The position numbers were made by a program, and so were the translations under genes. Under the pieces are notes generated by a model. The model was not told where the DNA came from and ran no database searches. It saw nothing but the letters and a program-made list of their open reading frames with translations. Shown piece by piece: positions 1-12,651 of a stretch of DNA of 12,904 nt (position 1 is the first letter of the stretch; each line of letters begins with the position of its first letter). Source of the stretch: Thermoproteota archaeon (GTDB lineage: Archaea > Korarchaeota > Korarchaeia > Korarchaeales > Korarchaeaceae); the NCBI GenBank assembly GCA_027491735.1, contig JAOZGP010000041.1, positions 1-12,904 on the forward strand, in the 5' to 3' direction.

Positions 1-206
1 GCCTTCGAGCAATGCAGCTTTTTTCACATGCCCTGAGGTGTGGTCAGTGGTGCGACCCCCGGCGTGTGGGTCTCAAGCCCCACTGGGCTTGAGGGGAGAT
101 ATGATGGTCTTCGTTTCCCTCGAAGGCTCTTCGATGAAACCTGAGATGAAAAGAGCCCTGTAGCGAAATATGCTGAATGTTACAAAAGTATGGAGAAGTA
201 GAATGG
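1..206 (+). mobile_element. Probable 3' remnant and right end of an IS607-family (tnpB-carrying) element
   Basis: 181-206 (TACAAAAGT-ATGGAGAAGTAGAATGG) aligns 21/27, with one gap, to the right end of the IS607 element at 10209-10235 read on the - strand (TACAAAAGTTACGGCTAACCAGAATGG). Frame 2 is open from 2 to 163 and ends ...DMMVFVSLEGSSMKP..., resembling archaeal TnpB tails as recalled. ACATGCCCTGAGGTGTGGT (26-44) gives TCPRCG if one base is removed. The left boundary is outside the window or uncertain. Confidence 0.5.
72..93. repeat. Perfect 9-bp inverted repeat (hairpin)
   Basis: CTCAAGCCC-CACT-GGGCTTGAG, seen directly. Confidence 0.85.
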
Positions 207-540
207 CCGGAGCAGGGACACCATGATTATCGCTGCCCGAGATTGTGCCTTGCACAGCTGCAACAGGTGAACCTAGCGGACAAGCGTGGGTTTTCAGCCA
301 TACCCCTCGAGTCGGAGTTTTGTAGCTTCCTAGATAGCCTCGCTAAGAGCTCCCCTCTTGCTGCCCTCAACTTCGATCGCTTACAGCTTTGAACCTCCCT
401 TCCAAGCTCTCCCCGTCAGCTTCCCACAGCCCGCATCCATAACCTCGCCCACGTCGAAATGTCTATAAAAGACCACACCTGCTGAACCCAACGAGACACG
501 ATCCTGTTGTAAGCTGTGCTCGATGTCGACCAGGGAGGTG

Positions 541-558
541 GGGATAATTTTTATTAAA
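541..558 (+). promoter_or_regulatory. Putative BRE/TATA promoter of the rpo operon
   Basis: GGGATAA-TTTTTATTAAA is the only AT-rich tract upstream of rpo5, about 55 nt before the start. Confidence 0.55.
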
Positions 559-609
559 CACATCCGGTTATGAAGAGGAGGTGCATTTTAGGGCACTCCT
601 GAGGGTGTC

Positions 610-951
610 TTGAACTTGGTCAGGAAATCTTCTCGAAGAAGAAAGTCTAGAAGAACTGTTAAAAGGATTAAAGTTAAGAGATCCCCTCCTAAAGTGGAGA
701 AAAAATCCAAGGAGGAGAAGAGGATTGCTGAGTTTGATGTCACAGCACATGTCCTGGTCCCAAAACATGTAAAGCTGAGCGAGAAGGAGAAGGCTGAGCT
801 CGAGGAGAGAGTCGGTAGTCTAAGTCTCCTTCCCAAGATAAAACATTCAGACCCAGCCCTCAGGGGACTAGATGTGAGACCGGGAGATGTAATAAAAATT
901 ATAAGACCCAACGAGCCCGTTCCGTATTACCGAGTGGTTGTAGAGGAATAG
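610..951 (+). CDS. rpo5: DNA-directed RNA polymerase subunit Rpo5 (H), with basic N-terminal extension
   Basis: Rpb5 C-domain motifs HVLVPKH, LPKIKHSDPA, PGDVIKIIR and YYRVV. First gene of the canonical rpoHBA operon. The TTG start is preceded by GAGGGTG; an alternative GTG lies at 694. Confidence 0.95.
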   Translation: MNLVRKSSRRRKSRRTVKRIKVKRSPPKVEKKSKEEKRIAEFDVTAHVLVPKHVKLSEKEKAELEERVGSLSLLPKIKHSDPALRGLDVRPGDVIKIIRPNEPVPYYRVVVEE

Positions 952-990
952 AGATCATGATCTATTCTGCTTCTGTGGAGGGAGGTTTTG

Positions 991-3900
991 ATGAACCTAG
1001 GTAATAGCGTTGATTTTTACCCAATCGTTTTGGCTTATTTTAGAGAAAACAGTTTAGTCGATCCTCAGATAAAATCCTTTGACAAGTTCTTGGAGGAAGG
1101 ACTTCAAGAGGTTATAGACTCCTTCAAGGAGATAGAGCTCATAGAGGGATATAAGCTCATTCTGGGTAAACTCAGCGTCGATAAACCACTAGTCTATGAG
1201 TATGACGGATCCAAGCTCTCCATATACCCGGCTGAGGCGAGGCTCAGGGACACGACATACCAAGCCCCAATATATCTTGATATAAAGGTATATTCCTCTG
1301 GAATGGAGCTCAAGACCGAGCGAGTTCAGCTGGGACATCTGCCGATCATGGTCAGATCGAAGGCCTGCAGGCTCAGCGACCTTGGTGAGGGAAGGAGCTT
1401 AGAGGATGTTGGAGAGGATCCTCTGGATCCCGGAGGATACTTCATAATAAATGGGTCCGAGAGGGTTCTCGTCATCAGAGACGACATAGCTCCCAACAAA
1501 ATAATAGTTGAGGAGGCCAGGGCTGAAAACAAGCCATACTCGCATTCAGCACAGGTTGTTTCAGAGAAGGCGGGTTTCAGAAGCAGGCTTTTCATGGAAT
1601 ACTACCTCAGCGAGGGAGCCATCAAGGCCTCCGTTGGCGGACTGCGTAAGGTTCCTGTGGCCATATTCTTCAAGGCCTTGGGCCTTGTGAGGGACTCTGA
1701 TATACTGAATGCTATCTCCATGAACCCTGAGATATCCAATGAATTCTTGTACAGTATAGAGGAAGCACAGAGAACCCTGAAGTCGGAAGGTCCTCCCTCT
1801 CAGGAGGACGCCTTGGATTATATTGGCAGGAGGCTCATCCAAGGAGCACCGAAGAGGGACAGGATAAGAGTCGCTAAGGACTATCTGAAGACCAGGTTTC
1901 TCCCTCACCTGGGAGATAAAGAGTCGGACTTCAAAGTGAAGGCTTACTATCTGGCGAAGATGATAGAGAAGCTCATCAGGGTCGTCAAGGGAATGTGCGA
2001 ACCGGATGACAAGGATCACTTCTCAAACAAGAGGTTGAGGCTCGCAGGAAATCTGATGCAGGAGCTCTTTAGGGATGCGTTCTATCAGTACATAAGGAGG
2101 TTAAAAGAAAAGGCTGATGATAAGCTCGCTCAAGGAGTTTACGACTTGGAAATTAAGAAACTTGTCGGAACGGAGATGTATATAACTAAGAGGATCATGA
2201 GATCACTGGCCACCGGAGCTTGGCCCCGAGGAGAGCTGGGTATAAGTCAGAACTTGGAAAGAACTAACTACATAGCAACAATCCATCATCTCAGAAGGGT
2301 CAACTCGAGCCTTCCAGCAGGTCTCCCACTACACGAGGTAAGGCAGATCCATGGAACCTCTGTTGGAAGATTATGCCCTCTGGAGACCCCAGAGGGAACT
2401 AACGTCGGACTTGTGAGGAGCTTAGCTCTCATGGCCAACGTGACGTATGGAGTGGATGCCTCGATTATAGTTAGCAGTCTACTTGATTGGGGTATGAGAC
2501 CAATTGAGGAAGCCTCTCCTGAGGAGGTCGGTTCCCTTGTCCCGGTGTACGTGAATGGAAGGTTAGTTGGACTCACGGATAAACCCGATGGTCTAGTAGC
2601 GTTCATCAAGGAGAGGAGAAGAGAGATAAGCCACGAGATAAACGTTACCTACATACCTGAGGAGAACACCGTCTACGTGAATGCTGATGCTGGGAGAATA
2701 CAGAGACCCCTGATACCGGTGGACAAGCTTGATGAGGTGATCTCCATCCTCGATAAGATAAAGAACGGTGAGCTCTCCTTTTCTGAGCTGTTCAGAAGAG
2801 GACTCATAGAACTACTTGATCCCGACGAGGAGGAATCCGCTCTCGTAGCTTACACCTTAGAGGAGGCCAGAAGGCCCGGCTATACGCATTTTGACTTTGC
2901 TCCATACGCCTCGCTCGGCGTAGCTGCCGGACAGATACCCTACGCCGAGCACAATGCCATACCAAGGGACATAATAGGGGGAAACATGGTGAGACAGGGC
3001 ATAGGGGTCTACGCCACTAACTGGAGGCTCAGAACGGACAGCCGCTCCTACATAATGTTCTACCAGCAGAAGCCCATAGTATACACGAGAAGCGCTGAGA
3101 TCGTTGGATATCACGTAAGACCCTCCGGACAGAACCTTGTCGTTGCCCTGATGCCGATGGACGCTTACAACATGGATGATGCTGTGGTCCTCAACAAGGG
3201 AGCTGTTGACAGAGGAATGGCTCGCATCATGACTTTCAGAACCTACAAGGCTGCAGCTAAGAGGCAAGCAGTTATAGAGGGAGATAGAATAGAGAATCCG
3301 CTGCCTCTTAAGGATGTTGTGGGGAAGAGAGAGGATCAGTACTACCAAAAGCTTGGAGAAGACGGTATAGTTGACCTTGAGACTTATGTCAGTGGTGGAG
3401 ATATCCTCATAGGAAGGACTAGCCCTCCAAGGTTTGCCCACAAACTAACGGGCACGGGATGGTTCTCGTTCACCTTCGAGAGGAGAGATACTTCAGTTCC
3501 CATGAGAGCTTGGGAGGAGGGCTACGTCAACGACGTGTACCTGATAACCACCCCAAGCGGAGAGAGGCTTGTGAAGGTGAGGGTCAGGGAGGTCAGACCT
3601 CCGGTCATAGGGGACAAGTTCGCCACAAGACACGGTCAGAAGGGAGTGGTTGGCATGGTGTTCAATGAGGAGGACATGCCTTTCACAGCCAGTGGAATAG
3701 TTCCGGACATAATACTTGATCCTCATGCCATACCCTCCAGGATGACCATAGGTCAGCTCATAGAGATCCTGGCAGGAAAGCTTGGATGCATCAAGGGGGA
3801 GTTCATCGATGGGACGCCCTTCATGAACGAGATGGTTGAGGACCTCATGGAGGCTCTCAGAAGGCTTGGCTTTGAGTACGGCGGCCTCGAGATAATGTAT

Positions 3901-4347
3901 GATGGAAGAACCGGTGAGATGATAAAGGCCCCGATATTCATAGGAGTTGGCTTCTATCAGAGACTTAAGCACCTTGTGAAGGATAAGGTTCACGCCAGAT
4001 CGAGAGGGCAGATGCAACTTTTGACCAAACAGCCTGTGGAGGGAAGAGCGAGGGGAGGAGGGCTCAGATTGGGAGAGATGGAGGGGGAGGTTCTCATCTC
4101 CCATGGAGCTGCTGCCATGTTGAAGGACAGGTACGTGGAGAACTCCGACAAGGAGATAGCATACATTTGCAAGAGATGCAACTCCCTCGCATATTTCAAC
4201 GTGCACACAAACCAGTTCTACTGTCCAAGGTGTAGAGATAACGTGGAGGTTTATCCTATAGTGACGAGCCATGCATCAACTCTGATGATGAAGGAGCTCA
4301 TGTCCGGGCTGATCGATGTCAGAGTGGAGATTGAGGAGGACCTGTAG
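991..4347 (+). CDS. rpo2: DNA-directed RNA polymerase subunit Rpo2 (B), unsplit
   Basis: Motifs GGYFIINGSERV, LCPLETPEG, GDKFATRHGQKG, PSRMTIGQ, YQRLKHLV and GLRLGEME, plus C-terminal CxxC...CxxC. GGAGG at 981-985 favours ATG 991 over TTG 988. Confidence 0.98.
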   Translation: MNLGNSVDFYPIVLAYFRENSLVDPQIKSFDKFLEEGLQEVIDSFKEIELIEGYKLILGKLSVDKPLVYEYDGSKLSIYPAEARLRDTTYQAPIYLDIKVYSSGMELKTERVQLGHLPIMVRSKACRLSDLGEGRSLEDVGEDPLDPGGYFIINGSERVLVIRDDIAPNKIIVEEARAENKPYSHSAQVVSEKAGFRSRLFMEYYLSEGAIKASVGGLRKVPVAIFFKALGLVRDSDILNAISMNPEISNEFLYSIEEAQRTLKSEGPPSQEDALDYIGRRLIQGAPKRDRIRVAKDYLKTRFLPHLGDKESDFKVKAYYLAKMIEKLIRVVKGMCEPDDKDHFSNKRLRLAGNLMQELFRDAFYQYIRRLKEKADDKLAQGVYDLEIKKLVGTEMYITKRIMRSLATGAWPRGELGISQNLERTNYIATIHHLRRVNSSLPAGLPLHEVRQIHGTSVGRLCPLETPEGTNVGLVRSLALMANVTYGVDASIIVSSLLDWGMRPIEEASPEEVGSLVPVYVNGRLVGLTDKPDGLVAFIKERRREISHEINVTYIPEENTVYVNADAGRIQRPLIPVDKLDEVISILDKIKNGELSFSELFRRGLIELLDPDEEESALVAYTLEEARRPGYTHFDFAPYASLGVAAGQIPYAEHNAIPRDIIGGNMVRQGIGVYATNWRLRTDSRSYIMFYQQKPIVYTRSAEIVGYHVRPSGQNLVVALMPMDAYNMDDAVVLNKGAVDRGMARIMTFRTYKAAAKRQAVIEGDRIENPLPLKDVVGKREDQYYQKLGEDGIVDLETYVSGGDILIGRTSPPRFAHKLTGTGWFSFTFERRDTSVPMRAWEEGYVNDVYLITTPSGERLVKVRVREVRPPVIGDKFATRHGQKGVVGMVFNEEDMPFTASGIVPDIILDPHAIPSRMTIGQLIEILAGKLGCIKGEFIDGTPFMNEMVEDLMEALRRLGFEYGGLEIMYDGRTGEMIKAPIFIGVGFYQRLKHLVKDKVHARSRGQMQLLTKQPVEGRARGGGLRLGEMEGEVLISHGAAAMLKDRYVENSDKEIAYICKRCNSLAYFNVHTNQFYCPRCRDNVEVYPIVTSHASTLMMKELMSGLIDVRVEIEEDL

Positions 4348-4358
4348 GAGGGATATTT

Positions 4359-7300
4359 ATGTCAGCTCTGGTTCCCGCTGCTGAAGAAGCGGTTCCTTAT
4401 AGGATAAGAGGTCTCATATTTGGGCTCCTCTCTCCCAAGGATATAAGAAACATAGGAGAGGTCGAGATCACTGAGGCCACAGTCTACGATGAGGGAGGCC
4501 TTCCAGTACAAGGGGGCGTTCTAGACCCGCGGCTGGGCTCCATAAATCCAAGACAGAGATGTCCAACATGTGGAAATCTGGCTAGTAGATGTCCTGGGCA
4601 CTTCGGCAGGTTAGAGCTGGCCAAGCCTGTTCTCCACATAGGATACATAAAGCACATACACAACATGCTGAACTTGACCTGCCACAACTGCGGAAAGATT
4701 CTGGTACCTCCAGAGAAGAGAGAGGAATTGATAAGAGAGGCGAAGAGATATTGGGAGAGAGAGGACACTGGGAACATAGATGACAAGCTGTCACGCAAGG
4801 TGAGAGGGCTTGTTAAGAGCTGCACAAAGAAGCAGAACGAGTGTCCACATTGCGGAGCGCCCATATATAAGGTGAACCTGTCCGAGGTCTTCAAGTTCAT
4901 AATCAGGGAGCCCGAGCCTAGGAAGCTCTTACCCCATGAGATAAGGGACTGGTTGGAGAGGATTCCCGACGACGATGCCATGATCTTAGGTTTTAATCCT
5001 AAGCGGGCTAGACCCGAATGGGCGGTACTAACAGTTATGCTCGTTCCCCCAGTGACGATCAGGCCTTCGATTTATTTAGAAACGGGAGAACGCTCGGAGG
5101 ATGACCTCACTCACATTCTTGTGGAGCTTGTTAAAGCAAATCAGAAGCTTAAGGAATCTATATCCGCTGGATCTCCCGACAGCGTCGTGGAGGGAGAGTG
5201 GGAGCTCCTTCAGTACTGGGTAAGCATCTTTTTCTACAATGCCAAGGCTCAGATGCCGACCGCCACGCAGAGAGGTACCAGAAGACCACTTAAATCCGTA
5301 TTTCAGAGGCTTACGGGTAAGGAAGGAAGGTTTAGAAGGAACCTCATAGGAAAGAGGGTCAATTTCAGCAGCAGGACCGTGATCTCGCCGGATCCCATGA
5401 TAGATATCGATGAGGTGGGTGTCCCTCTCGAGGTTGCAACCACCCTCACGGTCCCGGAGTACGTCAATGAGCAGAACATAGAGACCATGAAGGAGTACGT
5501 GCTAAAGGGTCCGACCGAATACCCTGGAGCCAATTACATAAGAAAGGGCAATCTGGTGATAAACCTCAGAGTCCTCAGAAGAAAGGGGAGGGAGCTACTC
5601 CAGAAAGCTGCTGAGGAGCTTGATCTTGGAGATGTTGTGGAGAGACATCTGATGGACGGGGACTACGTCATATTCAACAGGCAGCCTTCTCTGCACAAGC
5701 TTTCCATCTTGGGACATAGGGTCAAGGTCCTGCCCGGACTCACGTTCCGCCTAAACCCAATCGTCTGTGTACCTTACAACGCTGACTTTGATGGAGATGA
5801 GATGAACTTACATGTACCTCAGCTTCTGGAGGCGAGGTTGGAGGCGAGAGAATTAATGAGCGTTGTAAACAATATGCTATCTCCGAGAACTGGTGGAGCG
5901 ATCATTGGAGCTCGACAGGATCTGATAACCGGGCTCTACTGGCTCACCAAGAAGGATGCCCTCTTCAATAGAAAGGAGGCCTGCAGGATCCTGGCTCGGG
6001 CGGGATTGGACAGGCTTCCTGAACCCGTCATATTCAGTCCCGAACCGTTATGGACTGGTAAATCCTTAGTTACCGAGATACTCAAGCTTATCCCCGGAAA
6101 GCTTAACTACCGCGGGATCTCCAAGTCCTCCAAATCCAAGACGGAGCGTACCGACCCCACGAGCCCAGATGACGGGTATGTCCTCATCATGAATAACGAG
6201 TTCCTGTCCGGAATACTGGATGATAGCATCTTGGGAACCCTGGTGAAGGGCAAACCGACACTTCACGACATTATACTCAGAGATTACGGTCCCAGAGTCG
6301 CTGCTGAGTTTCTAAATAGGCTTTTAAAGATGGTAGCTAAGGAGATAACTCTTTTGGGAGTTACATCCACAATAAAGGAGCTCATGCTTCCAGAAGCCGC
6401 CAAAAAAGAGATCAACCAGAGGTTCAAGGAGGCACTTAGCGTGGTCTCCAAGAAGATAAAGGAGTTCGAGAAAAGCAGAACTGGGAGAAGAGTTCTCCAC
6501 AGGACCAAGGAGGAGCTGCTTGGGGCACTCCTAGAGGAACAAATGCTCGAATTTGAGATTGTTCAGGCTCTGGATAGGGTGAGATCTCAGATAGGTAATG
6601 TGATAAAGAAGTACATGGATCCGAACTCCAACGTCATCGTTATGGCCAAGACCGGTGCCAGAGGTAGCATGACAAACCTGGCTGAGGTCGTTGGTACTGT
6701 AGGACAGCAGATGGTCAAGAGCAGAATAGGGTTTGTGTTAACGAGTGGAAGACCCAAGAAAGGATTTAAGGGGCGAGTGCTCACTTATTTCAAGAAGGGA
6801 GACCTCAGTGCTGAGGCCAGAGGATACGTAAGAAGCAGCTACTTTGATGGGTTGAATCCAGCGGAGTTCATATTCCACGCCATGAGCAGTAGGGAGTCAC
6901 TGATAGATAAGGGAAGGAGAACCGAGGACAGCGGCTACTTCTACAGAAGAGTGGCTAACTCTCTGAAGGACATGTACGTCGAATATGATGGCACCGTCAG
7001 AGATTCGGCCGGTAGAATAATACAGATGGCTTTTGGAGGAGATGGATACGACCCAATAAAGCTCTTTAAGGGCGAACCAGTGAATATTGATGCTCTAATA
7101 AGCGAGATCTGTAAAGGGAAGAGGGGTAGAATGGTTTCTGAGGACGAACTCAGAGCTATGGCCTCCGAAGTCGGACTTCCGGAGGAGGTCATTGAGAGTC
7201 TTGCTAGCAGGGAGATACCTGTTTCCGCCGCCAAGAGAATCGTCAGGAGATTAGCGAAGGAGGTAGAAAGATGTAAAATCGACCCTCTCACACCTATAGG

Positions 7301-8318
7301 AATAATATCTGCGCAGAGTATAGCTGAACCCACGACTCAGATGGTCCTGAGAACCTTCCATGCTCCAGGAGTTCTGGAACTGGATGTAACTTATGGTGTG
7401 GAGAGATTTAAGGAGTTGGTGTTTTACGCGTCAACAAGCAGACCTTCGATGACGATCTATCTCAAACCGGAGTATGCTAGAGATGAGGAGAAGGCCAGAA
7501 AGACAGCTAGCAAGATAAAGGAGGTTAAAATAAGGGATCTGATCTCCGAGTTCGACATAGATAACACGACGTTTACGCTGACCATAAGAGTGGACGAGAA
7601 GGCCCTGAAGTCCAACGAGGTTACCGTCGAGGAGCTGGGGAACACAATAAAAAGAATGGTCAAGGGAAGGAAGGGTGAAGTCAGTAGAAAGGGTGATTTA
7701 ATGATCATTTCCCTTATAGAAGCCGCCAATAGAGATAAGCCGTTCCAGACATTGAGATCTTGGTCGATGAAGATTTTGGATAGGAGAATGAGGGGCATAA
7801 AGGGAATAAGAAAGGTCAGGGTTGAGAGGTCGAGAGAGGGGGAGTACGTGCTCAAGACCACGGGTTCCAACCTCAAAGCAGTTCTGAACATGCCTCAGGT
7901 CGATGCCACAAGAACCATCACAAACGATTGCCGTGAAGTAGCTGAGGTTCTTGGCATTGAAGCTGCCAGAGAGTGTATTTTTAGACAGCTAATGGGCGTG
8001 CTAGAGGAACAGGGTCTGGAAGTGAATGGAAGATATGTCTCACTTATAGCTGATGCCATGGCTTACAAAGGACACTTGGAGGCCATGAGGCTGCAGGCTC
8101 TCGGGATACCGTCCGGGTTCTTCAGTGAGATGAAGACTCCGCTCAGCAAGATGGCCTTCGAGTGGACGTACCACGTTATATTGAACTGTGCCAGGAGAGG
8201 GGATAAGAATATTATATCGAGCCCGCTTGATGCACTGATAGTTGGGCAGACCCCGCCCACAGGGACCGGAATGGTCTCGGTCAGGTGGGACGTGGACAAG
8301 CTCGCAGTGGAGGAATAA
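4359..8318 (+). CDS. rpo1: DNA-directed RNA polymerase largest subunit Rpo1, single polypeptide (A' and A'' fused)
   Basis: CPTC...CPGHFG zinc site, GKRVNFSSR, NRQPSLH, catalytic NADFDGD (5778-5798), AQSIAEPTTQMVLRTFH and GTG C-terminal region all lie in one 1319-aa frame. SD GGAGGGA lies upstream. Confidence 0.98.
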   Translation: MSALVPAAEEAVPYRIRGLIFGLLSPKDIRNIGEVEITEATVYDEGGLPVQGGVLDPRLGSINPRQRCPTCGNLASRCPGHFGRLELAKPVLHIGYIKHIHNMLNLTCHNCGKILVPPEKREELIREAKRYWEREDTGNIDDKLSRKVRGLVKSCTKKQNECPHCGAPIYKVNLSEVFKFIIREPEPRKLLPHEIRDWLERIPDDDAMILGFNPKRARPEWAVLTVMLVPPVTIRPSIYLETGERSEDDLTHILVELVKANQKLKESISAGSPDSVVEGEWELLQYWVSIFFYNAKAQMPTATQRGTRRPLKSVFQRLTGKEGRFRRNLIGKRVNFSSRTVISPDPMIDIDEVGVPLEVATTLTVPEYVNEQNIETMKEYVLKGPTEYPGANYIRKGNLVINLRVLRRKGRELLQKAAEELDLGDVVERHLMDGDYVIFNRQPSLHKLSILGHRVKVLPGLTFRLNPIVCVPYNADFDGDEMNLHVPQLLEARLEARELMSVVNNMLSPRTGGAIIGARQDLITGLYWLTKKDALFNRKEACRILARAGLDRLPEPVIFSPEPLWTGKSLVTEILKLIPGKLNYRGISKSSKSKTERTDPTSPDDGYVLIMNNEFLSGILDDSILGTLVKGKPTLHDIILRDYGPRVAAEFLNRLLKMVAKEITLLGVTSTIKELMLPEAAKKEINQRFKEALSVVSKKIKEFEKSRTGRRVLHRTKEELLGALLEEQMLEFEIVQALDRVRSQIGNVIKKYMDPNSNVIVMAKTGARGSMTNLAEVVGTVGQQMVKSRIGFVLTSGRPKKGFKGRVLTYFKKGDLSAEARGYVRSSYFDGLNPAEFIFHAMSSRESLIDKGRRTEDSGYFYRRVANSLKDMYVEYDGTVRDSAGRIIQMAFGGDGYDPIKLFKGEPVNIDALISEICKGKRGRMVSEDELRAMASEVGLPEEVIESLASREIPVSAAKRIVRRLAKEVERCKIDPLTPIGIISAQSIAEPTTQMVLRTFHAPGVLELDVTYGVERFKELVFYASTSRPSMTIYLKPEYARDEEKARKTASKIKEVKIRDLISEFDIDNTTFTLTIRVDEKALKSNEVTVEELGNTIKRMVKGRKGEVSRKGDLMIISLIEAANRDKPFQTLRSWSMKILDRRMRGIKGIRKVRVERSREGEYVLKTTGSNLKAVLNMPQVDATRTITNDCREVAEVLGIEAARECIFRQLMGVLEEQGLEVNGRYVSLIADAMAYKGHLEAMRLQALGIPSGFFSEMKTPLSKMAFEWTYHVILNCARRGDKNIISSPLDALIVGQTPPTGTGMVSVRWDVDKLAVEE

Positions 8319-8336
8319 GTGGGGGGTGTGCAACGT

Positions 8337-8639
8337 ATGGCCGATCTCGATGAGGAGATAAGGCTTGCATATAGCTCTGGTAAAGTTCTCGTAGGGTACA
8401 AAAGGACAGTAAAGGAGCTCAAAACTGGTAAGGATGAAGTAAAGCTGGTAATCATAGCCAAAAACGCACCAAAGAACATAAAAGACGAGATTACATATCT
8501 AGCTAAGCTCGCTGACGTACCAGTGGTGGAGTATCCTGGCAAGTCTCTGGAGCTCGGTAGAATACTCAGAAAGCCCTTCTTTGTCTCGTCTTTGGCCGTG
8601 ATAGATCCAGGAGAATCTTCCATACTCAAGATTACGTGA
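8337..8639 (+). CDS. rpl30e: Ribosomal protein eL30 (L30e)
   Basis: GKVLVGYKRTVK, KLVIIAKNAP, ELGRILRKPF and IDPGESSI motifs, in canonical position after rpo1. ATG 8337 follows GGGGGGTG; GTG 8319 is an alternative start. Confidence 0.96.
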   Translation: MADLDEEIRLAYSSGKVLVGYKRTVKELKTGKDEVKLVIIAKNAPKNIKDEITYLAKLADVPVVEYPGKSLELGRILRKPFFVSSLAVIDPGESSILKIT

Positions 8640-9124
8640 AGGAGGGGTCGCTGATACCTGAGAGGAAAATTTTCCTGAATCCCATACAGGTCAAGTACAT
8701 GACCCTCTTCGAGAACCTAGCGAGGGTTCCAGTGAAGGATGTAATCATAGATGATGAAGAAAACAGGCTGATCTTTCTTGTCGAGAAAAACTGTATAGGC
8801 CAAGTCCTTGGACGACGAGGGAGGAGGCTTAGAGCGATAAGAGAGGCACTCTGGATGGAGCTCAAAAAAGAGGTGGAGGTCGTCGAGTACGACGATAACC
8901 CCAAAAACTTCCTGAGGAATCTATTCAAACCTGCGCGAGTTGAGGAGGTGGTGATAAGGAGTACAGGCGGATTAAAGGTCGCATATATCTATGTCTTAAG
9001 AGAGGACAAGGGCATAGCTATAGGGAGAAACGGAAGGAAGATTAAACGTGCCAGGATAGTTGCCAAGAGATGGCTTGGGATAGACAACGTTAAAATAGGT
9101 GATGCTGAAAGATTAACCAGCTGA
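8636..9124 (+). CDS. nusA: Archaeal NusA (two KH domains)
   Basis: KH-type motifs IGQVLGRRG and KGIAIGRNG, plus VEVVEY; position between rpl30e and rps12. Start uncertain: GTG 8636 overlapping the rpl30e stop, or CTG/ATA at 8651/8654. Confidence 0.93.
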
Positions 9125-9134
9125 GACTGGGGGA

Positions 9135-9581
9135 ATGCCCATGACCAAGAAATCCCCGTTGGGACTATACGCCGCTCGCGTACTGAAAGAGAGATACAAG
9201 GAGAAGAGATGGCACTCTTGGAAGTATAGAAGGAGAGTTCTGAGACTTAAGGAGAGATTTGATCCCCTTGAGGGCGCTCCAATGGCGAGAGGGATAGTCC
9301 TGGAGAAGGTGGGTCTAGAGGCTAGACAGCCACACTCCGGATTGAGAAAGGCAGTTAAGGTGCAGCTTTCTAAGAACGGAGTTGTCGTCACAGCATTCGC
9401 TCCGGGAGATGGAGCTCTGAATGTCATAGAGGAGCACGACGAGGTGATCATAGAGGGGATCGGAGGTTCGCGAGGGAGGAGCATGGGAGATATACCAGGA
9501 TGTAGATATAAGGTGATAAAGGTCAACGGCGTGAGTCTCCAGGCGATCCTCTCCGGCAAAAAGGAGAAACCTACGAGGTGA
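9135..9581 (+). CDS. rps12: Ribosomal protein uS12 (archaeal S12/S23)
   Basis: [34 protein letters not shown] and GDIPG.RYKV motifs. ATG 9141 is an alternative start. Confidence 0.97.
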
Positions 9582-10207
9582 TGTCCTTGAGTGAAAGGGG
9601 AAGCCAAAGTCCAAAACTTTTTGGTATATGGAGTTTCGATGAGGTGGAGATAAAGAACCCGGCGATGAGACGAGTGATCTCCTTGAAGCCTGTCTACCTC
9701 CCGCACACCGGTGGCAGACATGAGCACAAAAGGTTTTGGAAGCTTCAGCTTCCAATCGTAGAGAGGTTAGTGAATAGGTTGATGAGCCAAGCCATGAACG
9801 CTGGCAACAAAAAAGATCGAATCAACAGCCGAAATCCTGGAAAGAAATTGAAGGCTCTTAGGACTGTTAAATTAGCCTTCAGGATCATTGAGCTAAGAAC
9901 CGGGAGAAACCCTATCCAAGTACTTGTTGATGCCATAGAGAACTCGCTTGTGAGAGAGGAGGTAACCAGGATAGTCTACGGAGGAGTCAGTTACTTCCAC
10001 TCAGTGGACACATCACCCACCAGGATGGTTGACTTGGCTGTAAGGTTCATAGCACAGGGAGCTGCCATGAAAGCGTTCAGGAGCATCACCAGCCTGCCAG
10101 AGGCCTTGGCTGAGGAGATAATTGCTGCTGCTGAGTATGACAGAAGTAAAAGCTATGCTATCAGAAGGAAGGAAGAGCTTGAGCGTATAGCCATGAGCAG
10201 TAGGTGA
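9581..10207 (+). CDS. rps7: Ribosomal protein uS7 (archaeal S7/S5)
   Basis: [35 protein letters not shown] and [12 protein letters not shown] motifs. Overlaps the rps12 stop (TGATG). GTG 9578 or TTG 9587 are also possible starts. Confidence 0.97.
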
Positions 10208-10249
10208 ACCATTCTGGTTAGCCGTAACTTTTGTAGAGTTTGTAAATTG

Positions 10250-10357
10250 AATGAGAAAGTTCACAATATCATGGTAGGTGGAGAAGAGGTCATATAACCC
10301 TTTAGGGAATTCCTTGAGCTTGAATCTTGCAGTGAGCTTAATCGTCTCTGAGGACAT
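10250..10357 (-). pseudogene. tnpB: 5' fragment of tnpB
   Basis: MSSETIKLTARFKLK...DLFSTYHDIVNFLI overlaps the tnpA end, as expected for IS607 tnpB. It runs directly into the right end, so RuvC and zinc finger regions are missing. Confidence 0.7.
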
Positions 10358-10947
10358 TCTTTACCGCCCCTACAAGACGCTTTTTCTTATGAGATCTCAT
10401 TCCATAAAGTTTTCCAGCAAATGAAGTTACGATGGCCAACAAGTCCTCAACGAGTTCTTTTTCTGGCGCTTTCTCCTCATCATCAAAGATTACCTCAATT
10501 TCAACACCATGAGAGTTAAAGTACTATTCGAGGTATTTGAATCCAAAGCGTGTGAGCCTGTCCCTGTAAGTTATGACGACCTTCCCAACTCTTCCACCCT
10601 CAACTAATTTGAAGGGTTGTTTTAATCCCTTTCTGTTCTCATTCAAGCCTAATGAAATGCCGGTAAGGATTTTCACAACCTGATAACCCTTGTAGGGGCA
10701 GTAGTTTTTGAGGTATTCTGCTTGTCTTTCAAGATCTTCTTTTTTGGTCTCTGCTCGAAACTCTAGCATAAATGATGACTTTATCAAGAGTTTTGCCTTC
10801 AAGTATTCTTTTGATTTCACTTTCGGGTATACGGTATTCTCTTCCAACATGATATGCTTTAATCTCATCAGGTTTAATCTTTCTAATTAGTGTTGGTTTG
10901 CTGATGCCCAAGAGTTGTGATGCCTTACCCGTTCGATACAGCCTCAT
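10338..10947 (-). pseudogene. tnpA: IS607-family transposase TnpA (N-terminal HTH plus serine recombinase), disrupted
   Basis: KASQLLGISKPTL HTH, catalytic YARVSS, DLERQ, YRDRLTRFGF and ELVEDLLAIVTSFAGKLYGMRSHK. There is a frameshift in an A6 run (10740-10745) and an in-frame TAG (10524-10526). The natural stop TAA at 10338-10340 overlaps the tnpB start region. Confidence 0.92.
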
Positions 10948-11080
10948 ACAGCACTCCTCAAGAATAAATTATGAAATGAAAATATCTAAACTTTACACTT
11001 TTAACTATTTATGAAACAGCGATACATTTATGAAGATCCTCATGGAGATTTTTATCAAAGATACGTCGGAGGAGATTTTC

Positions 11081-11326
11081 TTGAGAGGACAAGGAGGTCT
11101 CACCTCTCCCCTTTCGTTTCTAAAACTGGCTCATGGCGGGGACGTCACCATCAGACTTAAGAACGGTATAGAGATTGTCGGAAAGCTTTCGGTATACGAT
11201 GAGATGATGAACTTGGTGATAACATCCGCCAAAGAGAGAGATCCCGAGACAAAAAAGATTCTAAGGAACATAGGTACATTGTTCATCAGGGGAAACAACA
11301 TACTCATGATAACCATAGAGGAGTGA
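11081..11326 (+). CDS. Sm-like (Lsm/SmAP) RNA-binding protein
   Basis: Sm1 motif (VTIRLKNG...GKLSVYDEMMNLVI) and Sm2 motif (LFIRGNNI). TTG 11081 is preceded by GGAGGAG; the ORF extends upstream to ATG 11030. Confidence 0.93.
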   Translation: MRGQGGLTSPLSFLKLAHGGDVTIRLKNGIEIVGKLSVYDEMMNLVITSAKERDPETKKILRNIGTLFIRGNNILMITIEE

Positions 11327-11411: not shown

Positions 11412-11690
11412 TCATCTCTTAAGGGCTGTTATCGTTTTTGTAGCAGTGATGTACCATCTTATCTGATCTCTGAACCATTTCCAGAACTGAACAAACGCGT
11501 CCATATCATCGGTCTCGAGAATTATGAATCCGTTATATGAGCTACCCCAAGCATGATCGAAAACCCCAACGAGCCTTATCTTTGAGGGCCAGCTCTCCAT
11601 GATCTCCTCCCATTGGGCACGTGCTTTTTCCTCCTCCTCGGGAGTTAGATATTTTAGTTTATAGAATATAAGGAAGAGATAGCTGGGCAT
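11412..11690 (-). CDS. Small hypothetical protein, possibly a dimeric alpha+beta barrel (ferredoxin-like) fold
   Basis: A 92-aa ORF with an apparent beta-alpha-beta-beta-alpha-beta pattern (YLFLIFYK / helix / RLVGVF / GFIILETDD / helix / TKTITAL) and SD-like GGTGG upstream. The fold call is inference. Confidence 0.75.
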   Translation of the reverse strand: MPSYLFLIFYKLKYLTPEEEEKARAQWEEIMESWPSKIRLVGVFDHAWGSSYNGFIILETDDMDAFVQFWKWFRDQIRWYITATKTITALKR

Positions 11691-11759
11691 TCGACCCACC
11701 CGGACCCACCGACGCTAGGGATAAGATAAAAAGATGAGCCCTCATGAAGAGGACTTCCA

Positions 11760-11831
11760 TGGGCCGGGTGGGACTCGAACCCACGACCTCCGCCTCGTAA
11801 GGGCGGCGTCATACCGCTAGACCACCGGCCC
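11760..11831 (-). tRNA. tRNA-Val(UAC), intronless, no encoded CCA
   Basis: GGGCCGG/CCGGCCC acceptor stem, CCGCC-CTTACGA-GGCGG anticodon arm, GTGGG-TTCGAGT-CCCAC T arm, discriminator A. Confidence 0.97.
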
Positions 11832-11838
11832 AAAAACA

Positions 11839-11911
11839 AGCCCCGAGGGGGATTCGAACCCCCGACCTGCCGCTTACAAGGCGGCCGCTCTGACCGCTGA
11901 GCTACCGGGGC
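11839..11911 (-). tRNA. tRNA-Thr(UGU), intronless, no encoded CCA
   Basis: GCCCCGG/TCGGGGC acceptor stem, GCCGC-CTTGTAA-GCGGC anticodon arm, GGGGG-TTCGAAT-CCCCC T arm, discriminator U. Confidence 0.97.
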
Positions 11912-11934
11912 TCGTGGGGTAAAAAGGCGTAACC

Positions 11935-11980: not shown

Positions 11981-12538
11981 ATGTTCACCGACGTCATAGC
12001 CCTAACCATGGCAATAGGAGATAAGAGGCTCGCTGAAAAGATACTTGAGATCATGAACTTTGAGGAGGTGGAGGAAGGCGACCTAATAGAAGCCATGAGG
12101 ATGAAACCCTCTGAGCTCAGAAGGATCCTCTACATCATGCAGGAGGAGAACTTGGCCATAAGAACCAAGATTGATATAGACAGAGAGGAGGGAATAAGGA
12201 AAGTTTATTGGAAGCTGAACGGAAAAGAGTTCAGCAAGTATGTAGCCAAAAGGCTAAGAGAAGCCATAGATGACCTGAGTAGATATCTTCAAAAGCAGAA
12301 CGGGACGGAGTTTTACGTGTGTGCCTCTGACCCATCCCACAGGAGGATAACCCTGGACGAGATGATGAAAATTATCTCCTCGGAAAAGGGGGCTGTGTGT
12401 GACGTTTGTGGGGCTATGTTGGTGCCAGTGGATAAGGAAAGAGTGAAGAGAACTGTTGACGGCTACATAAGGATTCTCAAGGAGGCCTTGGAGATTTTTG
12501 AAGGGAGATTCAAATCGCATGGAGGGACAAGTTTTTAA
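11981..12538 (+). CDS. tfe: Transcription factor E alpha (TFE/TFIIE-alpha), divergent
   Basis: Winged helix (ELRRILYIMQEENL...VYWKL), a coiled segment and a zinc ribbon FYVC-x5-H...CDVCGAML..VD. 185 aa, with SD AGGAG. Confidence 0.85.
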   Translation: MFTDVIALTMAIGDKRLAEKILEIMNFEEVEEGDLIEAMRMKPSELRRILYIMQEENLAIRTKIDIDREEGIRKVYWKLNGKEFSKYVAKRLREAIDDLSRYLQKQNGTEFYVCASDPSHRRITLDEMMKIISSEKGAVCDVCGAMLVPVDKERVKRTVDGYIRILKEALEIFEGRFKSHGGTSF

Positions 12539-12563: not shown

Positions 12564-12651
12564 GCCGGGGTGCCCTAGCCCGGTAGGGGGCTGGCCTGCT
12601 AAGCCAGTGGCCCGTTGGGCCGCGTGGGTTCAAATCCCACCCCCGGCGCCA
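12564..12651 (+). tRNA. tRNA-Ser(GCU) with long variable arm and encoded CCA
   Basis: GCCGGGG/CCCCGGC acceptor stem, CTGGC-CTGCTAA-GCCAG anticodon arm, GGCCC-GTT-GGGCC variable arm, GTGGG-TTCAAAT-CCCAC T arm, G-CCA end. Confidence 0.97.

What the first reader, a model, noticed from the sequence alone, without database searches (positions are those of the whole stretch)
6858..6972. Strongly rewritten RNA polymerase bridge helix
Seen: [29 protein letters not shown] versus the highly conserved archaeal/eukaryotic [17 protein letters not shown](R/K)T(A/S)xSGYxQRRL. All three N-terminal hinge glycines are Ser, the central TAV (Pol II Thr831 region facing the +1 template base) is KGR, and Q before RR is Y. 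The catalytic NADFDGD is intact and the gene sits in the main operon, so it is likely the working enzyme. Established: bridge-helix hinges govern nucleotide addition and translocation. Inference: a natural RNAP variant with a different active-centre mechanism, fidelity or inhibitor resistance. This is the best candidate for novel biology here.
Basis: partly seen in the sequence, partly recalled or inferred. Interest (0 to 1): 0.8.

Follow-up and report, generated by a model that had tools for sequence, protein, structure and literature searches.

The report
Rewritten bridge helix of korarchaeal polymerase
The only RNA polymerase of this hot-spring archaeon, and of its whole family, carries a heavily altered version of a helix at the enzyme's active centre that was thought to be almost unchangeable, with matching changes in the parts that touch it; it is probably a re-fitted but working enzyme, and nobody has tested it.

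Summary
Rpo1 residues 840-864 read [25 protein letters not shown], which differs at 11 of 25 positions from the archaeal consensus (median 2 in 81 other archaeal loci). The gene is a fused A'+A'' rpo1 in the rpoH-rpo2-rpo1-L30e-nusA-S12-S7 operon and is the only copy in the genome. It is not special to this genome. All 33 Korarchaeaceae genomes that had a match carry the same type of helix, among them Ca. Korarchaeum cryptofilum OPF8. The amino acids are held fixed while the codons drift. Relatives at order, class and phylum rank carry intermediate forms, so the helix changed step by step. Partner elements changed with it: the trigger loop (FHAPGV, GVERFKE), the Rpo1 C-terminal block, and the Rpo2 fork-loop and link segments. 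The residues that face the nucleic acid and the C-terminal hinge are kept. Several of the replaced positions are ones where single substitutions cripple the M. jannaschii or yeast enzymes. Others match changes that activate them. Best reading: a working, compensated, co-evolved bridge-helix/trigger-loop module. A different mechanism is possible but not shown. I found no description of it in the library I searched. The closest precedent is the Nanoarchaeum polymerase.

The parts
610..951 (+). rpoH (Rpo5). The Rpb5_C domain covers residues 42-110. It is preceded by a 40-residue Lys/Arg-rich stretch if the TTG start is real.
   Evidence: Pfam PF01191, E 4.6e-17; translation
988..4347 (+). rpo2, the unsplit RNA polymerase subunit B, 1119 aa
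   Evidence: Seven Rpb2 Pfam domains above cut-off
2305..2433 (+). Rpo2 fork-loop / FL3 block (residues 440-482): ...[35 protein letters not shown]. Other archaea have ...PHFEARDLH...ETPEGPNCGLVKNLA here.
   Evidence: Query-anchored alignment of 19 lineages; F449H and K477R are fixed in 23/23 Korarchaeaceae against 11/11 outgroup lineages
2935..3006 (+). Rpo2 link-domain block (residues 650-673): IPYAEHNAIPRDIIGGNMVRQGIG. Other archaea have IPYPEHN.SPRNTY..(A/G)MAKQ(S/A)(L/I)G. The Arg of PRN is kept.
   Evidence: The role of the link domain, which couples the NTP to the bridge-helix N-terminus, is taken from PMC3270539.
3997..4095 (+). Rpo2 C-terminal block [31 protein letters not shown]. Other archaea have RGPVQ.LT.QPTEGRAREGGLRFGEMERD here.
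   Evidence: P1008Q, T1017V, D1034E are fixed in the family
4359..8318 (+). rpo1, with A' and A'' fused in one 1319-aa ORF; the only copy in the assembly
   Evidence: Rpb1 domains 1-5 above cut-off; PDB hits to Rpo1N (E 5e-244) and Rpo1C; one match in the own genome with the protein and with PF04998
5778..5798 (+). Catalytic NADFDGD (residues 474-480), intact
   Evidence: invariant columns
6876..6950 (+). Bridge-helix core, residues 840-864 (M. jannaschii A' H806-R830; offset 34): [25 protein letters not shown]
6885..6899 (+). N-terminal hinge SSRES (mj G809 G810 R811 E812 G813): all three glycines are Ser
   Evidence: S844 and S847 are invariant in 33/33 family genomes, and 843 is S, T or A
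6909..6917 (+). Central KGR (mj Q817 A818 V819; yeast T827 A828 V829)
   Evidence: K851 is found across the whole phylum, G852 across the class, R853 only in the family.
6921..6947 (+). T855 (yeast T831, conserved), E856 (yeast A832) and the C-terminal hinge D857-S858-G859-Y860...R863. S-G-Y and R-R are kept. Asp sits where mj has Q823.
   Evidence: Q823D/E is superactive in M. jannaschii and mimics the Thermus D1090-R1096 lock (PMC2776397; PMC3270539).
7314..7418 (+). Trigger loop, residues 986-1020: [35 protein letters not shown]. Q994, L997, R998 and H1001 are kept. Changes fixed in the family: G989A, T996V, Y/F1002A, A1003P, L1014V, P1015E, L1017F, I1018K.
   Evidence: This is the highest-scoring 25-residue window for family-specific replacement of conserved residues.
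8136..8243 (+). Rpo1 C-terminal conserved block (residues 1260-1295), strongly rewritten: ...LSKMAFEWTYHVILNCARRGDKNIISSPLDALIVGQ
   Evidence: second-highest window. Its PDB matches are only marginal (E 1.6e-4 to 6e-3).
8319..10207 (+). Downstream operon genes: L30e (8319-8639), NusA-type KH protein (8636-9124), S12 (9135-9581), S7 (9578-10207)
   Evidence: Pfam hits

Best explanation
This is the single, working largest subunit of the RNA polymerase of a member of the Korarchaeaceae, in the same genus as Ca. Methanodesulfokora washburnensis. The rewritten bridge helix is a fixed lineage character. It arose in steps on the korarchaeal stem and is now held by strong purifying selection. On its nucleic-acid and catalytic side it is an ordinary bridge helix: R845, L848, D850, R854, T855 (the +1 template contact), S858-G859-Y860 (the C-terminal hinge) and R863-R864 are all kept. 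What has been re-fitted is the N-terminal glycine hinge and the face that, by the M. jannaschii data, points away from the catalytic centre towards the trigger loop. The trigger loop, the Rpo1 C-terminal block and the Rpo2 fork-loop and link segments changed with it. I read this as a compensated, co-evolved bridge-helix/trigger-loop module, that is, contextual epistasis. Inferred, not shown: three Gly->Ser changes stiffen the N-terminal hinge. The trigger-loop changes F/Y1002A, A1003P and P1015E fall at positions where single changes give loss of function or lethality in yeast. On their own these would lower activity. They are offset by changes of the kind that raise activity in M. jannaschii RNAP: an acidic residue at Q823, which can lock onto R829, and a basic residue at V819. 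The chemistry is the ordinary two-metal mechanism. Rate, pausing or fidelity may differ, but that is untested.
For: Working enzyme: five Rpb1 domains and an intact NADFDGD; the canonical operon; one rpo1 in the own genome; one match in each of the closed or nearly closed family genomes G013, G019 and G007. Lineage character: 33 of 36 family genomes gave a match. The 3 without a match are 63-83% complete. All 33 have S844, S847, DKGRRT and DSGYFYRR: 24 read MSSRES, 5 MTSRES and 4 MASRDS. Among 1.84 billion cluster representatives there were 5101 hits, and only 1 of the best 150 has this type. Lineage names come from exact look-up: G013 is the Ca. Korarchaeum cryptofilum OPF8 record and G003 is Ca. 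Methanodesulfokora washburnensis. Selection: in 21 family loci, 23 of 25 bridge-helix codons vary synonymously, while the amino acid is invariant at 20 of 25. Stepwise origin, taking GTDB ranks from the tool: the phylum has [11 protein letters not shown], the class and order have AGR(D/E)(S/T)LVDKGL, and the family has (S/T/A)SR(E/D)SL(I/V)DKGR. The tree agrees. Co-variation: the three top non-overlapping 25-residue windows for family-fixed replacement of conserved residues are the trigger loop (6.84), the C-terminal block (6.55) and the bridge helix (4.93). A852G, G989A, A1003P and E1291D/N1292A are shared with the class. G844S, T996V, L1014V/P1015E and A1263S/A1265M are family-only. The Rpo2 fork-loop and link blocks also changed. 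Experimental framework, from passages and sections I read: any substitution of mj G809 or G810 severely reduces activity, and G813 is less sensitive (PMC2988716). Superactive changes cluster at D816, Q817, V819, Q823 and S824, on the face away from the catalytic centre; V819K and Q823D/E are superactive; A822 tolerates large side chains (PMC2776397; PMC3270539). In yeast, changes at A1087-G1088 are almost all lethal or severe, and most F1086 and P1099 variants lose function. The pocket of T1080, L1101, I837 and L841 takes part in trigger-loop folding, and all four equivalents are changed here. Gain-of-function bridge-helix variants suppress loss-of-function trigger-loop variants (PMC5127505). 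Trigger loops are widely incompatible outside their own enzyme (PMC10002619). Hyperthermophily is not the cause: loci labelled Sulfolobales, Desulfurococcales, Archaeoglobus and Thermofilaceae have the canonical helix. That these groups are hyperthermophiles is recalled, not taken from a call.
Against: There is no biochemical, structural or expression evidence for any korarchaeal polymerase. I could not test whether the changed residues touch each other in three dimensions, because no coordinates were available. The AlphaFold model of residues 780-1319 had pLDDT below 50 over the bridge helix. By a strict count the bridge helix is only weakly enriched: 3 of its 14 positions that are at least 90% conserved are replaced, against 18 of 277 elsewhere (one-sided Fisher p = 0.07). 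The trigger loop gives p = 0.007 and the C-terminal block, which was chosen after seeing the data, p = 0.001. Rpo1 as a whole is divergent in this lineage: about 16% of other conserved positions deviate, as many as in Nanoarchaeota. General acceleration therefore explains part of the pattern. Co-variation rests on two branches of one lineage. Effects of single mutants in M. jannaschii and yeast may not carry over. Summed helix propensity rises at the N-hinge by 1.5 kcal/mol but is unchanged in the centre, so a simple move of the hinge to G852 is not supported (the scale values are recalled).
Confidence: 0.7

Rival explanations
1. The mechanics really differ. The Korarchaeaceae polymerase runs the nucleotide-addition cycle without the N-terminal glycine hinge. 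It relies on an Asp-Arg-locked C-terminal hinge, a central glycine and a proline-capped trigger loop. Translocation, pausing, fidelity or ion requirements are measurably different, and the state was selected for.
For: All three hinge glycines are lost, together with A1087P, F1086A and P1099E equivalents. These are positions reported as nearly unsubstitutable in model enzymes. The state is held invariant across five genera. Ser at 844 occurs with Ser at 847 and Lys at 851 in at least three further lineages: L100/P0175, and the Micrarchaeota L102 and L109. Of 29 sequences without Gly at 844, 27 have K851, counted among 259 sequences whose kin are not independent. That suggests a second stable design. 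The Nanoarchaeum enzyme, with its own radical substitutions, has an unusual fluoride requirement in vitro (PMC8204694 abstract).
Against: No functional data exist. All residues that contact nucleic acid, the catalytic residues and the C-hinge residues are conserved. An acidic residue at the Q823 position is also seen in Pol III. The lineages that share parts of the pattern are long-branched in the Rpo1 tree, which fits drift plus compensation as well.
Confidence: 0.2
2. Plain neutral divergence. These positions are less constrained in nature than the single-mutant experiments suggest. They drifted during a phase of relaxed selection in a small-genome lineage, and no compensation by the trigger loop or Rpo2 was needed.
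For: Deviation is high at conserved positions over the whole of Rpo1, at 13-19% in Korarchaeia. Enrichment in the bridge helix is weak by the strict test (p = 0.07). G843 and Q862 vary in other archaea. One family member, P0096, has Gly at 844.
Against: The replaced residues cluster in exactly the three blocks known to work together. They are now invariant while the codons drift. Single changes at mj G809/G810 and at yeast A1087 are severe or lethal.
Confidence: 0.08
3. An inactive or accessory copy, or an assembly or sequencing artefact.
For: None was found. The own assembly is only 88% complete, so a second copy cannot be strictly excluded for this genome alone.
Against: There is a single copy in this genome and in the 99%-complete single-contig relative G013. 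The ORF is intact, lies in the operon and has all catalytic motifs. The same protein string occurs in 33 species-level genomes and in 20 clusters at 90% identity from NCBI, JGI, ENA and Logan.
Confidence: 0.02

Closest known systems
Canonical archaeal Rpo1 (Thermococcus kodakarensis 4QIW, Sulfolobus 2WAQ/2PMZ, Pyrococcus 8CRO)
   Same: Same five-domain architecture. HMMER E-values are 5e-244 to 4e-238 to Rpo1N and 3e-60 to Rpo1C. NADFDGD, the zinc ligands, R845, D850, R854, T855, SGY, RR, and the trigger-loop residues Q994, L997, R998 and H1001 are conserved.
   Different: A' and A'' are fused. 11 of the 25 bridge-helix core residues differ, including all three N-hinge glycines. The trigger loop has FHAPGV and GVERFKE in place of FH(Y/F)AGV and GLPRLIE. 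The C-terminal block and the Rpo2 fork-loop and link blocks are rewritten.
Rpo1 of Ca. Korarchaeum cryptofilum OPF8 (ACB08268.1 / WP_012310165.1) and Ca. Methanodesulfokora washburnensis (RZN61447.1)
   Same: Identical bridge-helix core and near-identical trigger loop. Fused rpo1. Overall identity is 64% and 73%.
   Different: Nothing relevant to the finding differs, so these are the same thing in sister genera. The feature has therefore been in public records for years. My recollection is that the OPF8 genome paper dates from 2008; I did not check this.
Nanoarchaeum equitans RNAP and related DPANN enzymes (Nottebaum & Weinzierl 2021, PMC8204694)
   Same: A natural archaeal polymerase with radical substitutions in the bridge helix, trigger loop and fork loop 3 at positions otherwise invariant. 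The substitutions lie in the same enzyme, and the authors read them as a diverged but active active-site architecture.
   Different: The substitutions are different. The nanoarchaeal type has a Pro in the bridge helix and keeps the second glycine (MTGRD...DTALRTPKSGYLYRR). The korarchaeal type has no Pro in the helix, loses all three glycines and puts a Pro after the trigger-loop His. The Metal-B motif was not examined here. The nanoarchaeal enzyme has been reconstituted; the korarchaeal one has not.
Superactive M. jannaschii bridge-helix mutants, and the Thermus D1090-R1096 lock (Tan et al. 2008; Weinzierl 2010, 2011)
   Same: D857 with R863 reproduces the Q823D/R829 pairing. R853 is like V819K. 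The changes lie on the face the authors describe as pointing away from the catalytic centre.
   Different: Those are single engineered changes in a canonical background. Here they occur together with G809S/G810S-type changes that are strongly deleterious on their own in that enzyme.

Membership tests
Archaeal/eukaryotic RNA polymerase largest subunit (Rpo1/Rpb1) | Rpb1 domains 1-5 in order | tested here: met
   PF04997, PF00623, PF04983, PF05000 and PF04998 are all above the curated cut-offs
Archaeal/eukaryotic RNA polymerase largest subunit (Rpo1/Rpb1) | Catalytic NADFDGD metal-A loop | tested here: met
   Residues 474-480, invariant in alignment A1
Archaeal/eukaryotic RNA polymerase largest subunit (Rpo1/Rpb1) | Bridge helix with the conserved R..L.D...RT..SGY..RR frame, and trigger loop with Q..L(R/N)..H | tested here: met
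   R845, L848, D850, R854, T855, S858, G859, Y860, R863 and R864, plus Q994, L997, R998 and H1001, are all present
Archaeal/eukaryotic RNA polymerase largest subunit (Rpo1/Rpb1) | Housekeeping context: the rpoH-rpo2-rpo1 operon, single copy | tested here: met
Canonical archaeal/eukaryotic N-terminal bridge-helix hinge (BH-HN, Weinzierl 2010) | Two adjacent glycines after the hinge Met (mj G809, G810), plus G813 | tested here: not met
   S843, S844 and S847. The sample of 81 other archaeal loci has G at 85%, 96% and 86%.
Canonical C-terminal bridge-helix hinge (BH-HC) | S-G-Y followed by R-R (mj S824, G825, Y826, R829, R830) | tested here: met
   S858, G859, Y860, R863 and R864 are each 100% in the family and in the outgroup
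Nanoarchaeal-type diverged active centre (PMC8204694) | Proline within the bridge helix (neA' P810), with the nanoarchaeal FL3 and trigger-loop pattern | tested here: not met
   There is no Pro in residues 840-864. The nanoarchaeal and woesearchaeal loci read ...TALRTPKSGY....
Korarchaeaceae-type bridge helix (defined here) | S844, S847, DKGRRT and DSGYFYRR, together with FHAPG in the trigger loop | tested here: met
   The window matches the strings seen in all 33 family genomes for the helix and in 20 of 20 family loci that reach the trigger loop
Active enzyme | Transcription activity, expression | not testable with these tools
   No RNA run was listed. No korarchaeal RNAP biochemistry was found.

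The most novel reading that the evidence does not exclude
Korarchaeaceae carry a second stable design of the multisubunit-polymerase active centre. DPANN lineages with Ser844/Ser847/Lys851 would have reached it independently. In this design the N-terminal glycine hinge is dispensable. Bridge-helix and trigger-loop mechanics are re-partitioned: an Asp-Arg-locked C-hinge, a central Gly, a Pro directly after the catalytic His of the trigger loop, and a re-packed hydrophobic pocket. This would give measurably different translocation, pausing or fidelity, and it would be a natural test of the two-hinge model of the nucleotide-addition cycle.
Probability: 0.22. Interest if true: 0.75.

Novelty: new variant of a known kind. 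Interest (0 to 1): 0.45.

Why it matters
The two-hinge model of the bridge helix, and the view that the Ala-Gly linker of the trigger loop cannot be changed, rest on mutagenesis of two model enzymes. [quoted passage not shown] A whole archaeal family that has replaced all three hinge glycines and the linker alanine, and holds the new state under strong selection, is a clean natural counter-example. It comes with living intermediates at order, class and phylum rank, which lay out the order of the substitutions. That makes the compensation hypothesis directly testable by grafting residues into recombinant archaeal polymerases. It also gives a concrete natural case for the contextual epistasis described for the Pol II trigger loop. 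It does not by itself show new chemistry, and the sequence has long been public, so its value is as a lead and not as a discovery of a new system.

Tried and rejected

They served as the outgroup sample. The family was named through the listing of cluster members instead.

(3) Sequencing runs: two DNA runs from one study held 4-6% of the sampled words, and no RNA holder was listed. Laying them gave only short contigs of relatives at less than 95% likeness. One 151-base piece spanned 6798-6946. It had 12 differences, and the 7 that were listed are third-codon or synonymous positions. This gives no evidence on expression and only trivial support for the sequence.

(4) AlphaFold2 on residues 780-1319 with a 26-row alignment gave mean pLDDT 64.5, and below 50 over residues 1-90 of the fragment, which hold the bridge helix. 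The helix break it draws at SSRES (fragment 64-68) is therefore not usable. No fold search was run.

(5) Hinge relocation to G852: summed helix propensities change by -1.5 kcal/mol at the N-hinge and by 0 in the centre (recalled scale). I dropped it as a stand-alone mechanism.

(6) An outgroup search for Rpo2 in the phylum of G037 returned 31 genomes of a single family. Only one of these (G037, L138) was counted in the outgroup, which therefore has 11 lineages. With so few, the 90% threshold missed the obviously rewritten fork-loop and link blocks. Those were read from the alignment instead.

(7) Inhibitor resistance: nothing in the data bears on it, and I did not pursue it.

The per-residue 'structure, evolution and function' files of Tan et al. 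2008, and the list of archaeal trigger-loop substitutions that are lethal in yeast (PMC10002619), may already show korarchaeal residues.
Full report
WHAT IS THERE. The window is a whole 12.9-kb contig of a 1.36-Mb, 88%-complete assembly. Its + strand carries the classical archaeal transcription/translation operon: rpoH (610-951), an unsplit rpo2 (988-4347), rpo1 (4359-8318), L30e, a NusA-type KH protein, S12 and S7. Rpo1 is one 1319-aa ORF that joins what most archaea encode as A' and A''. It matches solved Rpo1N chains at E 5e-244 and Rpo1C at 3e-60. In an ungapped alignment to Thermococcus Rpo1N, its core [25 protein letters not shown] stands against [25 protein letters not shown]. NADFDGD is intact.

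NUMBERING. The M. jannaschii positions listed in Weinzierl 2010 and Tan 2008 (H806...R830) fit the window's residues 840-864 with an offset of 34. Yeast Rpb1 fits with an offset of 24 (1i3q_A 776-874 against query 7-105). So S843/S844/S847 = mj G809/G810/G813. K851/G852/R853 = mj Q817/A818/V819 = yeast T827/A828/V829. T855 = yeast T831. E856 = yeast A832. D857 = mj Q823. The threonine that contacts the template is conserved, and it is its neighbour A832 that has become Glu.

HOW UNUSUAL. I extracted the bridge helix from 80 named archaeal loci spread over the domain and from one Nitrosopumilus-like relative. The computed consensus is [25 protein letters not shown]. These 81 loci deviate from it at a median of 2 of 25 positions. 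The window deviates at 11. Some DPANN lineages deviate as much or more: two Micrarchaeota loci at 13 and 14, an unnamed lineage (L100) at 13, and Woese- and Nanoarchaeota at 9-11. In a search of 1.84 billion cluster representatives, 5101 proteins matched the 107-residue segment. Only one of the best 150, the family's own representative, has this type of helix. A residue other than Gly at position 844 occurs in 4 of those 150.

WHOSE IT IS. Exact look-up of relatives' proteins named the lineage. The single-contig relative G013 encodes the Rpo1 on record for Ca. Korarchaeum cryptofilum OPF8. The same-genus relative G003 encodes that of Ca. Methanodesulfokora washburnensis. Other relatives are labelled Korarchaeota. 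The collection holds 43 species-level genomes of this phylum, 36 of them in the window's family. Of those 36, 33 gave a match; the three that did not are 63-83% complete. Each of the 33 has exactly one match. All 33 have S844, S847, DKGRRT and DSGYFYRR: 24 read MSSRES, 5 MTSRES and 4 MASRDS. Twenty protein clusters at 90% identity from NCBI, JGI, ENA and Logan carry the segment at 75% identity or more. Nineteen of the twenty have Ser at 844, and one (P0096) has Gly. The fusion of RpoA in Korarchaeota is already in print (PMC3082918, Table 1).

SELECTION AND HISTORY. Across 21 family loci whose Rpo1 proteins are only about 60-64% identical to the window's, 23 of the 25 bridge-helix codons show synonymous variants. 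The amino acid is invariant at 20 of 25. Ser847 even uses both the TCN and AGC codon families. This excludes an artefact and shows strong purifying selection on the new state. Relatives at increasing rank carry intermediates. The phylum-level families have [14 protein letters not shown](D/E)SGY(L/F)QRR. The class- and order-level families have AGR(D/E)(S/T)LVDKGLRTAESGY(A/T)YR(R/K). The family has the full set. So G843A, G847S/T, T851K and an acidic residue at 857 came first, then A852G and Q862Y, and last G844S, L853R, A856E/Q and 861F. A FastTree tree of Rpo1, made without the three rewritten blocks, recovers the family, its sister families and then the phylum-level families. It puts P0096 inside the family. 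The tree also shows long branches for Korarchaeia, DPANN and Njordarchaeia.

THE HELIX DID NOT CHANGE ALONE. I scored every Rpo1 position for a residue that is fixed in the family, differs from the outgroup consensus and is rare in the outgroup. The three best non-overlapping 25-residue windows are the trigger loop (996-1020, score 6.84), a C-terminal block (1268-1292, 6.55) and the bridge helix (842-866, 4.93). The trigger loop reads [20 protein letters not shown]...GVERFKEL. The substrate-contacting Q, L, R and H are kept. The aromatic residue after the His has become Ala, the Ala of the Ala-Gly linker has become Pro, and the Pro of GLPRL has become Glu. The C-terminal block is so changed that its PDB matches are marginal. 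In Rpo2, the fork-loop/FL3 block, the link block around the conserved PR(N->D) and the GEMERD block are also family-specific. By a strict count the enrichment is modest for the helix (3 of 14 conserved positions against 18 of 277 elsewhere, p = 0.07). It is clearer for the trigger loop (p = 0.007) and for the C-terminal block, which was chosen after the fact (p = 0.001). About 16% of other conserved Rpo1 positions also deviate, so part of the picture is general acceleration.

WHAT THE EXPERIMENTS ON MODEL ENZYMES SAY. I read sections 5 and 11 and passages of PMC2988716, and passages of PMC2776397, PMC3270539 and PMC10002619. I read the abstract and passages of PMC8204694, and passages plus section 13 of PMC5127505. 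In M. jannaschii RNAP, any residue other than Gly at G809 or G810 severely reduces activity, and G813 is less sensitive. These glycines are called essentially invariant in archaeal and eukaryotic enzymes. Activating changes cluster at D816, Q817, V819, Q823 and S824, whose side chains point away from the catalytic centre towards the trigger loop. V819K and Q823D/E are superactive. Q823D/E is superactive because it mimics the Thermus Asp-Arg lock of the C-terminal hinge. A822 tolerates large side chains. In yeast Pol II, changes in the A1087-G1088 linker are almost all lethal or severe and mostly cannot be suppressed. Most variants of F1086 and P1099 lose function. T1080 and L1101 of the trigger loop form a pocket with bridge-helix I837 and L841, and the equivalents of all four are changed here (V996, F1017, F861, V865). 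Gain-of-function bridge-helix variants suppress strong loss-of-function trigger-loop variants. Trigger loops from other enzymes are widely incompatible with yeast Pol II, which the authors ascribe to co-evolution with the enzyme context. Nottebaum and Weinzierl reconstituted the N. equitans enzyme, whose helix, trigger loop and fork loop 3 carry a different set of radical substitutions. They found it active, with an odd fluoride requirement.

READING. The nucleic-acid side of the helix and its C-terminal hinge are untouched. The N-terminal hinge and the face towards the trigger loop are rewritten together with the trigger loop and its surroundings. The korarchaeal state combines changes that are crippling on their own in model enzymes with changes that are activating there. 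The most economical explanation is a compensated, co-evolved module in a fully working housekeeping enzyme (confidence 0.7). It probably has some shift in kinetics, but there is no evidence for different chemistry. A truly different mechanical solution remains possible (about 0.2). One hint for it is that Ser844 comes with Ser847 and Lys851 in at least three other lineages. Of the 29 sequences without Gly at 844, 27 have Lys851, among 259 sequences whose kin are not independent. Plain drift without compensation (0.08) fits poorly with the clustering and the present invariance. An inactive copy or an artefact is effectively excluded. Heat is not the cause: loci labelled as hyperthermophilic orders keep the canonical helix (that these orders are hyperthermophiles is recalled).

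NOVELTY. Two full-text searches for 'bridge helix' with Korarchaeum or Korarchae* found 1 and 4 papers. From title and abstract in the listing, the PolD and ASFV papers are about other subjects. In the two others I read the passages, and the two words occur in unrelated places. So I found no description of this variant in the held library. Subscription journals and supplementary files were not seen. The sequence itself is long public. I rate it a new variant of a known kind and a good, cheap lead for people who study polymerase mechanics, with interest 0.45.

Noticed in passing
window 10524-10947 (- strand), with the low-GC stretch 10001-11000: Two overlapping ORFs in different frames look like one broken serine recombinase. 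ORF 10729-10947 has an HTH_17 domain and ends with the start of a resolvase catalytic motif. ORF 10524-10868 matches the Resolvase N-terminal domain. Together they resemble a frameshifted IS607-type transposase (the IS607 naming is recalled). They lie in a GC dip (0.41 against about 0.49) directly after the S7 gene.
   Followed up: partly
window 610-735: If the TTG start at 610 is used, RpoH has a 40-residue Lys/Arg-rich N-terminal extension ahead of the Rpb5_C domain. The true start may lie further downstream. I did not compare it with relatives.
   Followed up: no
window 1-609: About 600 bases upstream of rpoH have no convincing ORF, no Rfam match and no tRNA.
   Followed up: partly
window 11759-11912 (-) and 12564-12651 (+): tRNA-Val(TAC) and tRNA-Thr(TGT) in tandem, and tRNA-Ser(GCT). 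They flank a TFE-alpha gene (11981-12538). Nearby are an LSM gene (11030-11326) and a small ORF with a borderline NIPSNAP match (11412-11699).
   Followed up: partly
L100, L102, L109; proteins P0102, P0108, P0175: Other archaeal lineages (two Micrarchaeota loci and an unnamed lineage) also have Ser at the second hinge glycine, always with Ser at 847 and Lys at 851 (for example NSRESLMDKSL). This looks like a convergent alternative hinge. Two of them also share Val or Ile at the trigger-loop position of T996.
   Followed up: partly
P0105-P0107 (one is named Candidatus Njordarchaeia): Fused Rpo1 of about 1350 aa with [22 protein letters not shown]. It has the korarchaeal C-terminal half of the helix (DSGYFYRR) on a canonical N-terminal half. 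It groups with Korarchaeia in the Rpo1 tree, possibly through long-branch attraction.
   Followed up: no
P0108 (1446 aa, ENA): One protein carries both Rpb2 domains (PF00562, PF04560, PF04566, PF04567) and Rpb1 domains, with the bridge helix at residue 1367. It may be a fusion of the end of Rpo2 to Rpo1N in the lineage with the NSRE(G/S)LMDKSL helix.
   Followed up: no
P0096 (1326 aa, JGI): A member of the family, nested next to genus g5 in the tree, reads [23 protein letters not shown]. It has Gly at 844 on the otherwise complete family pattern, so position 844 can toggle in this background.
   Followed up: partly
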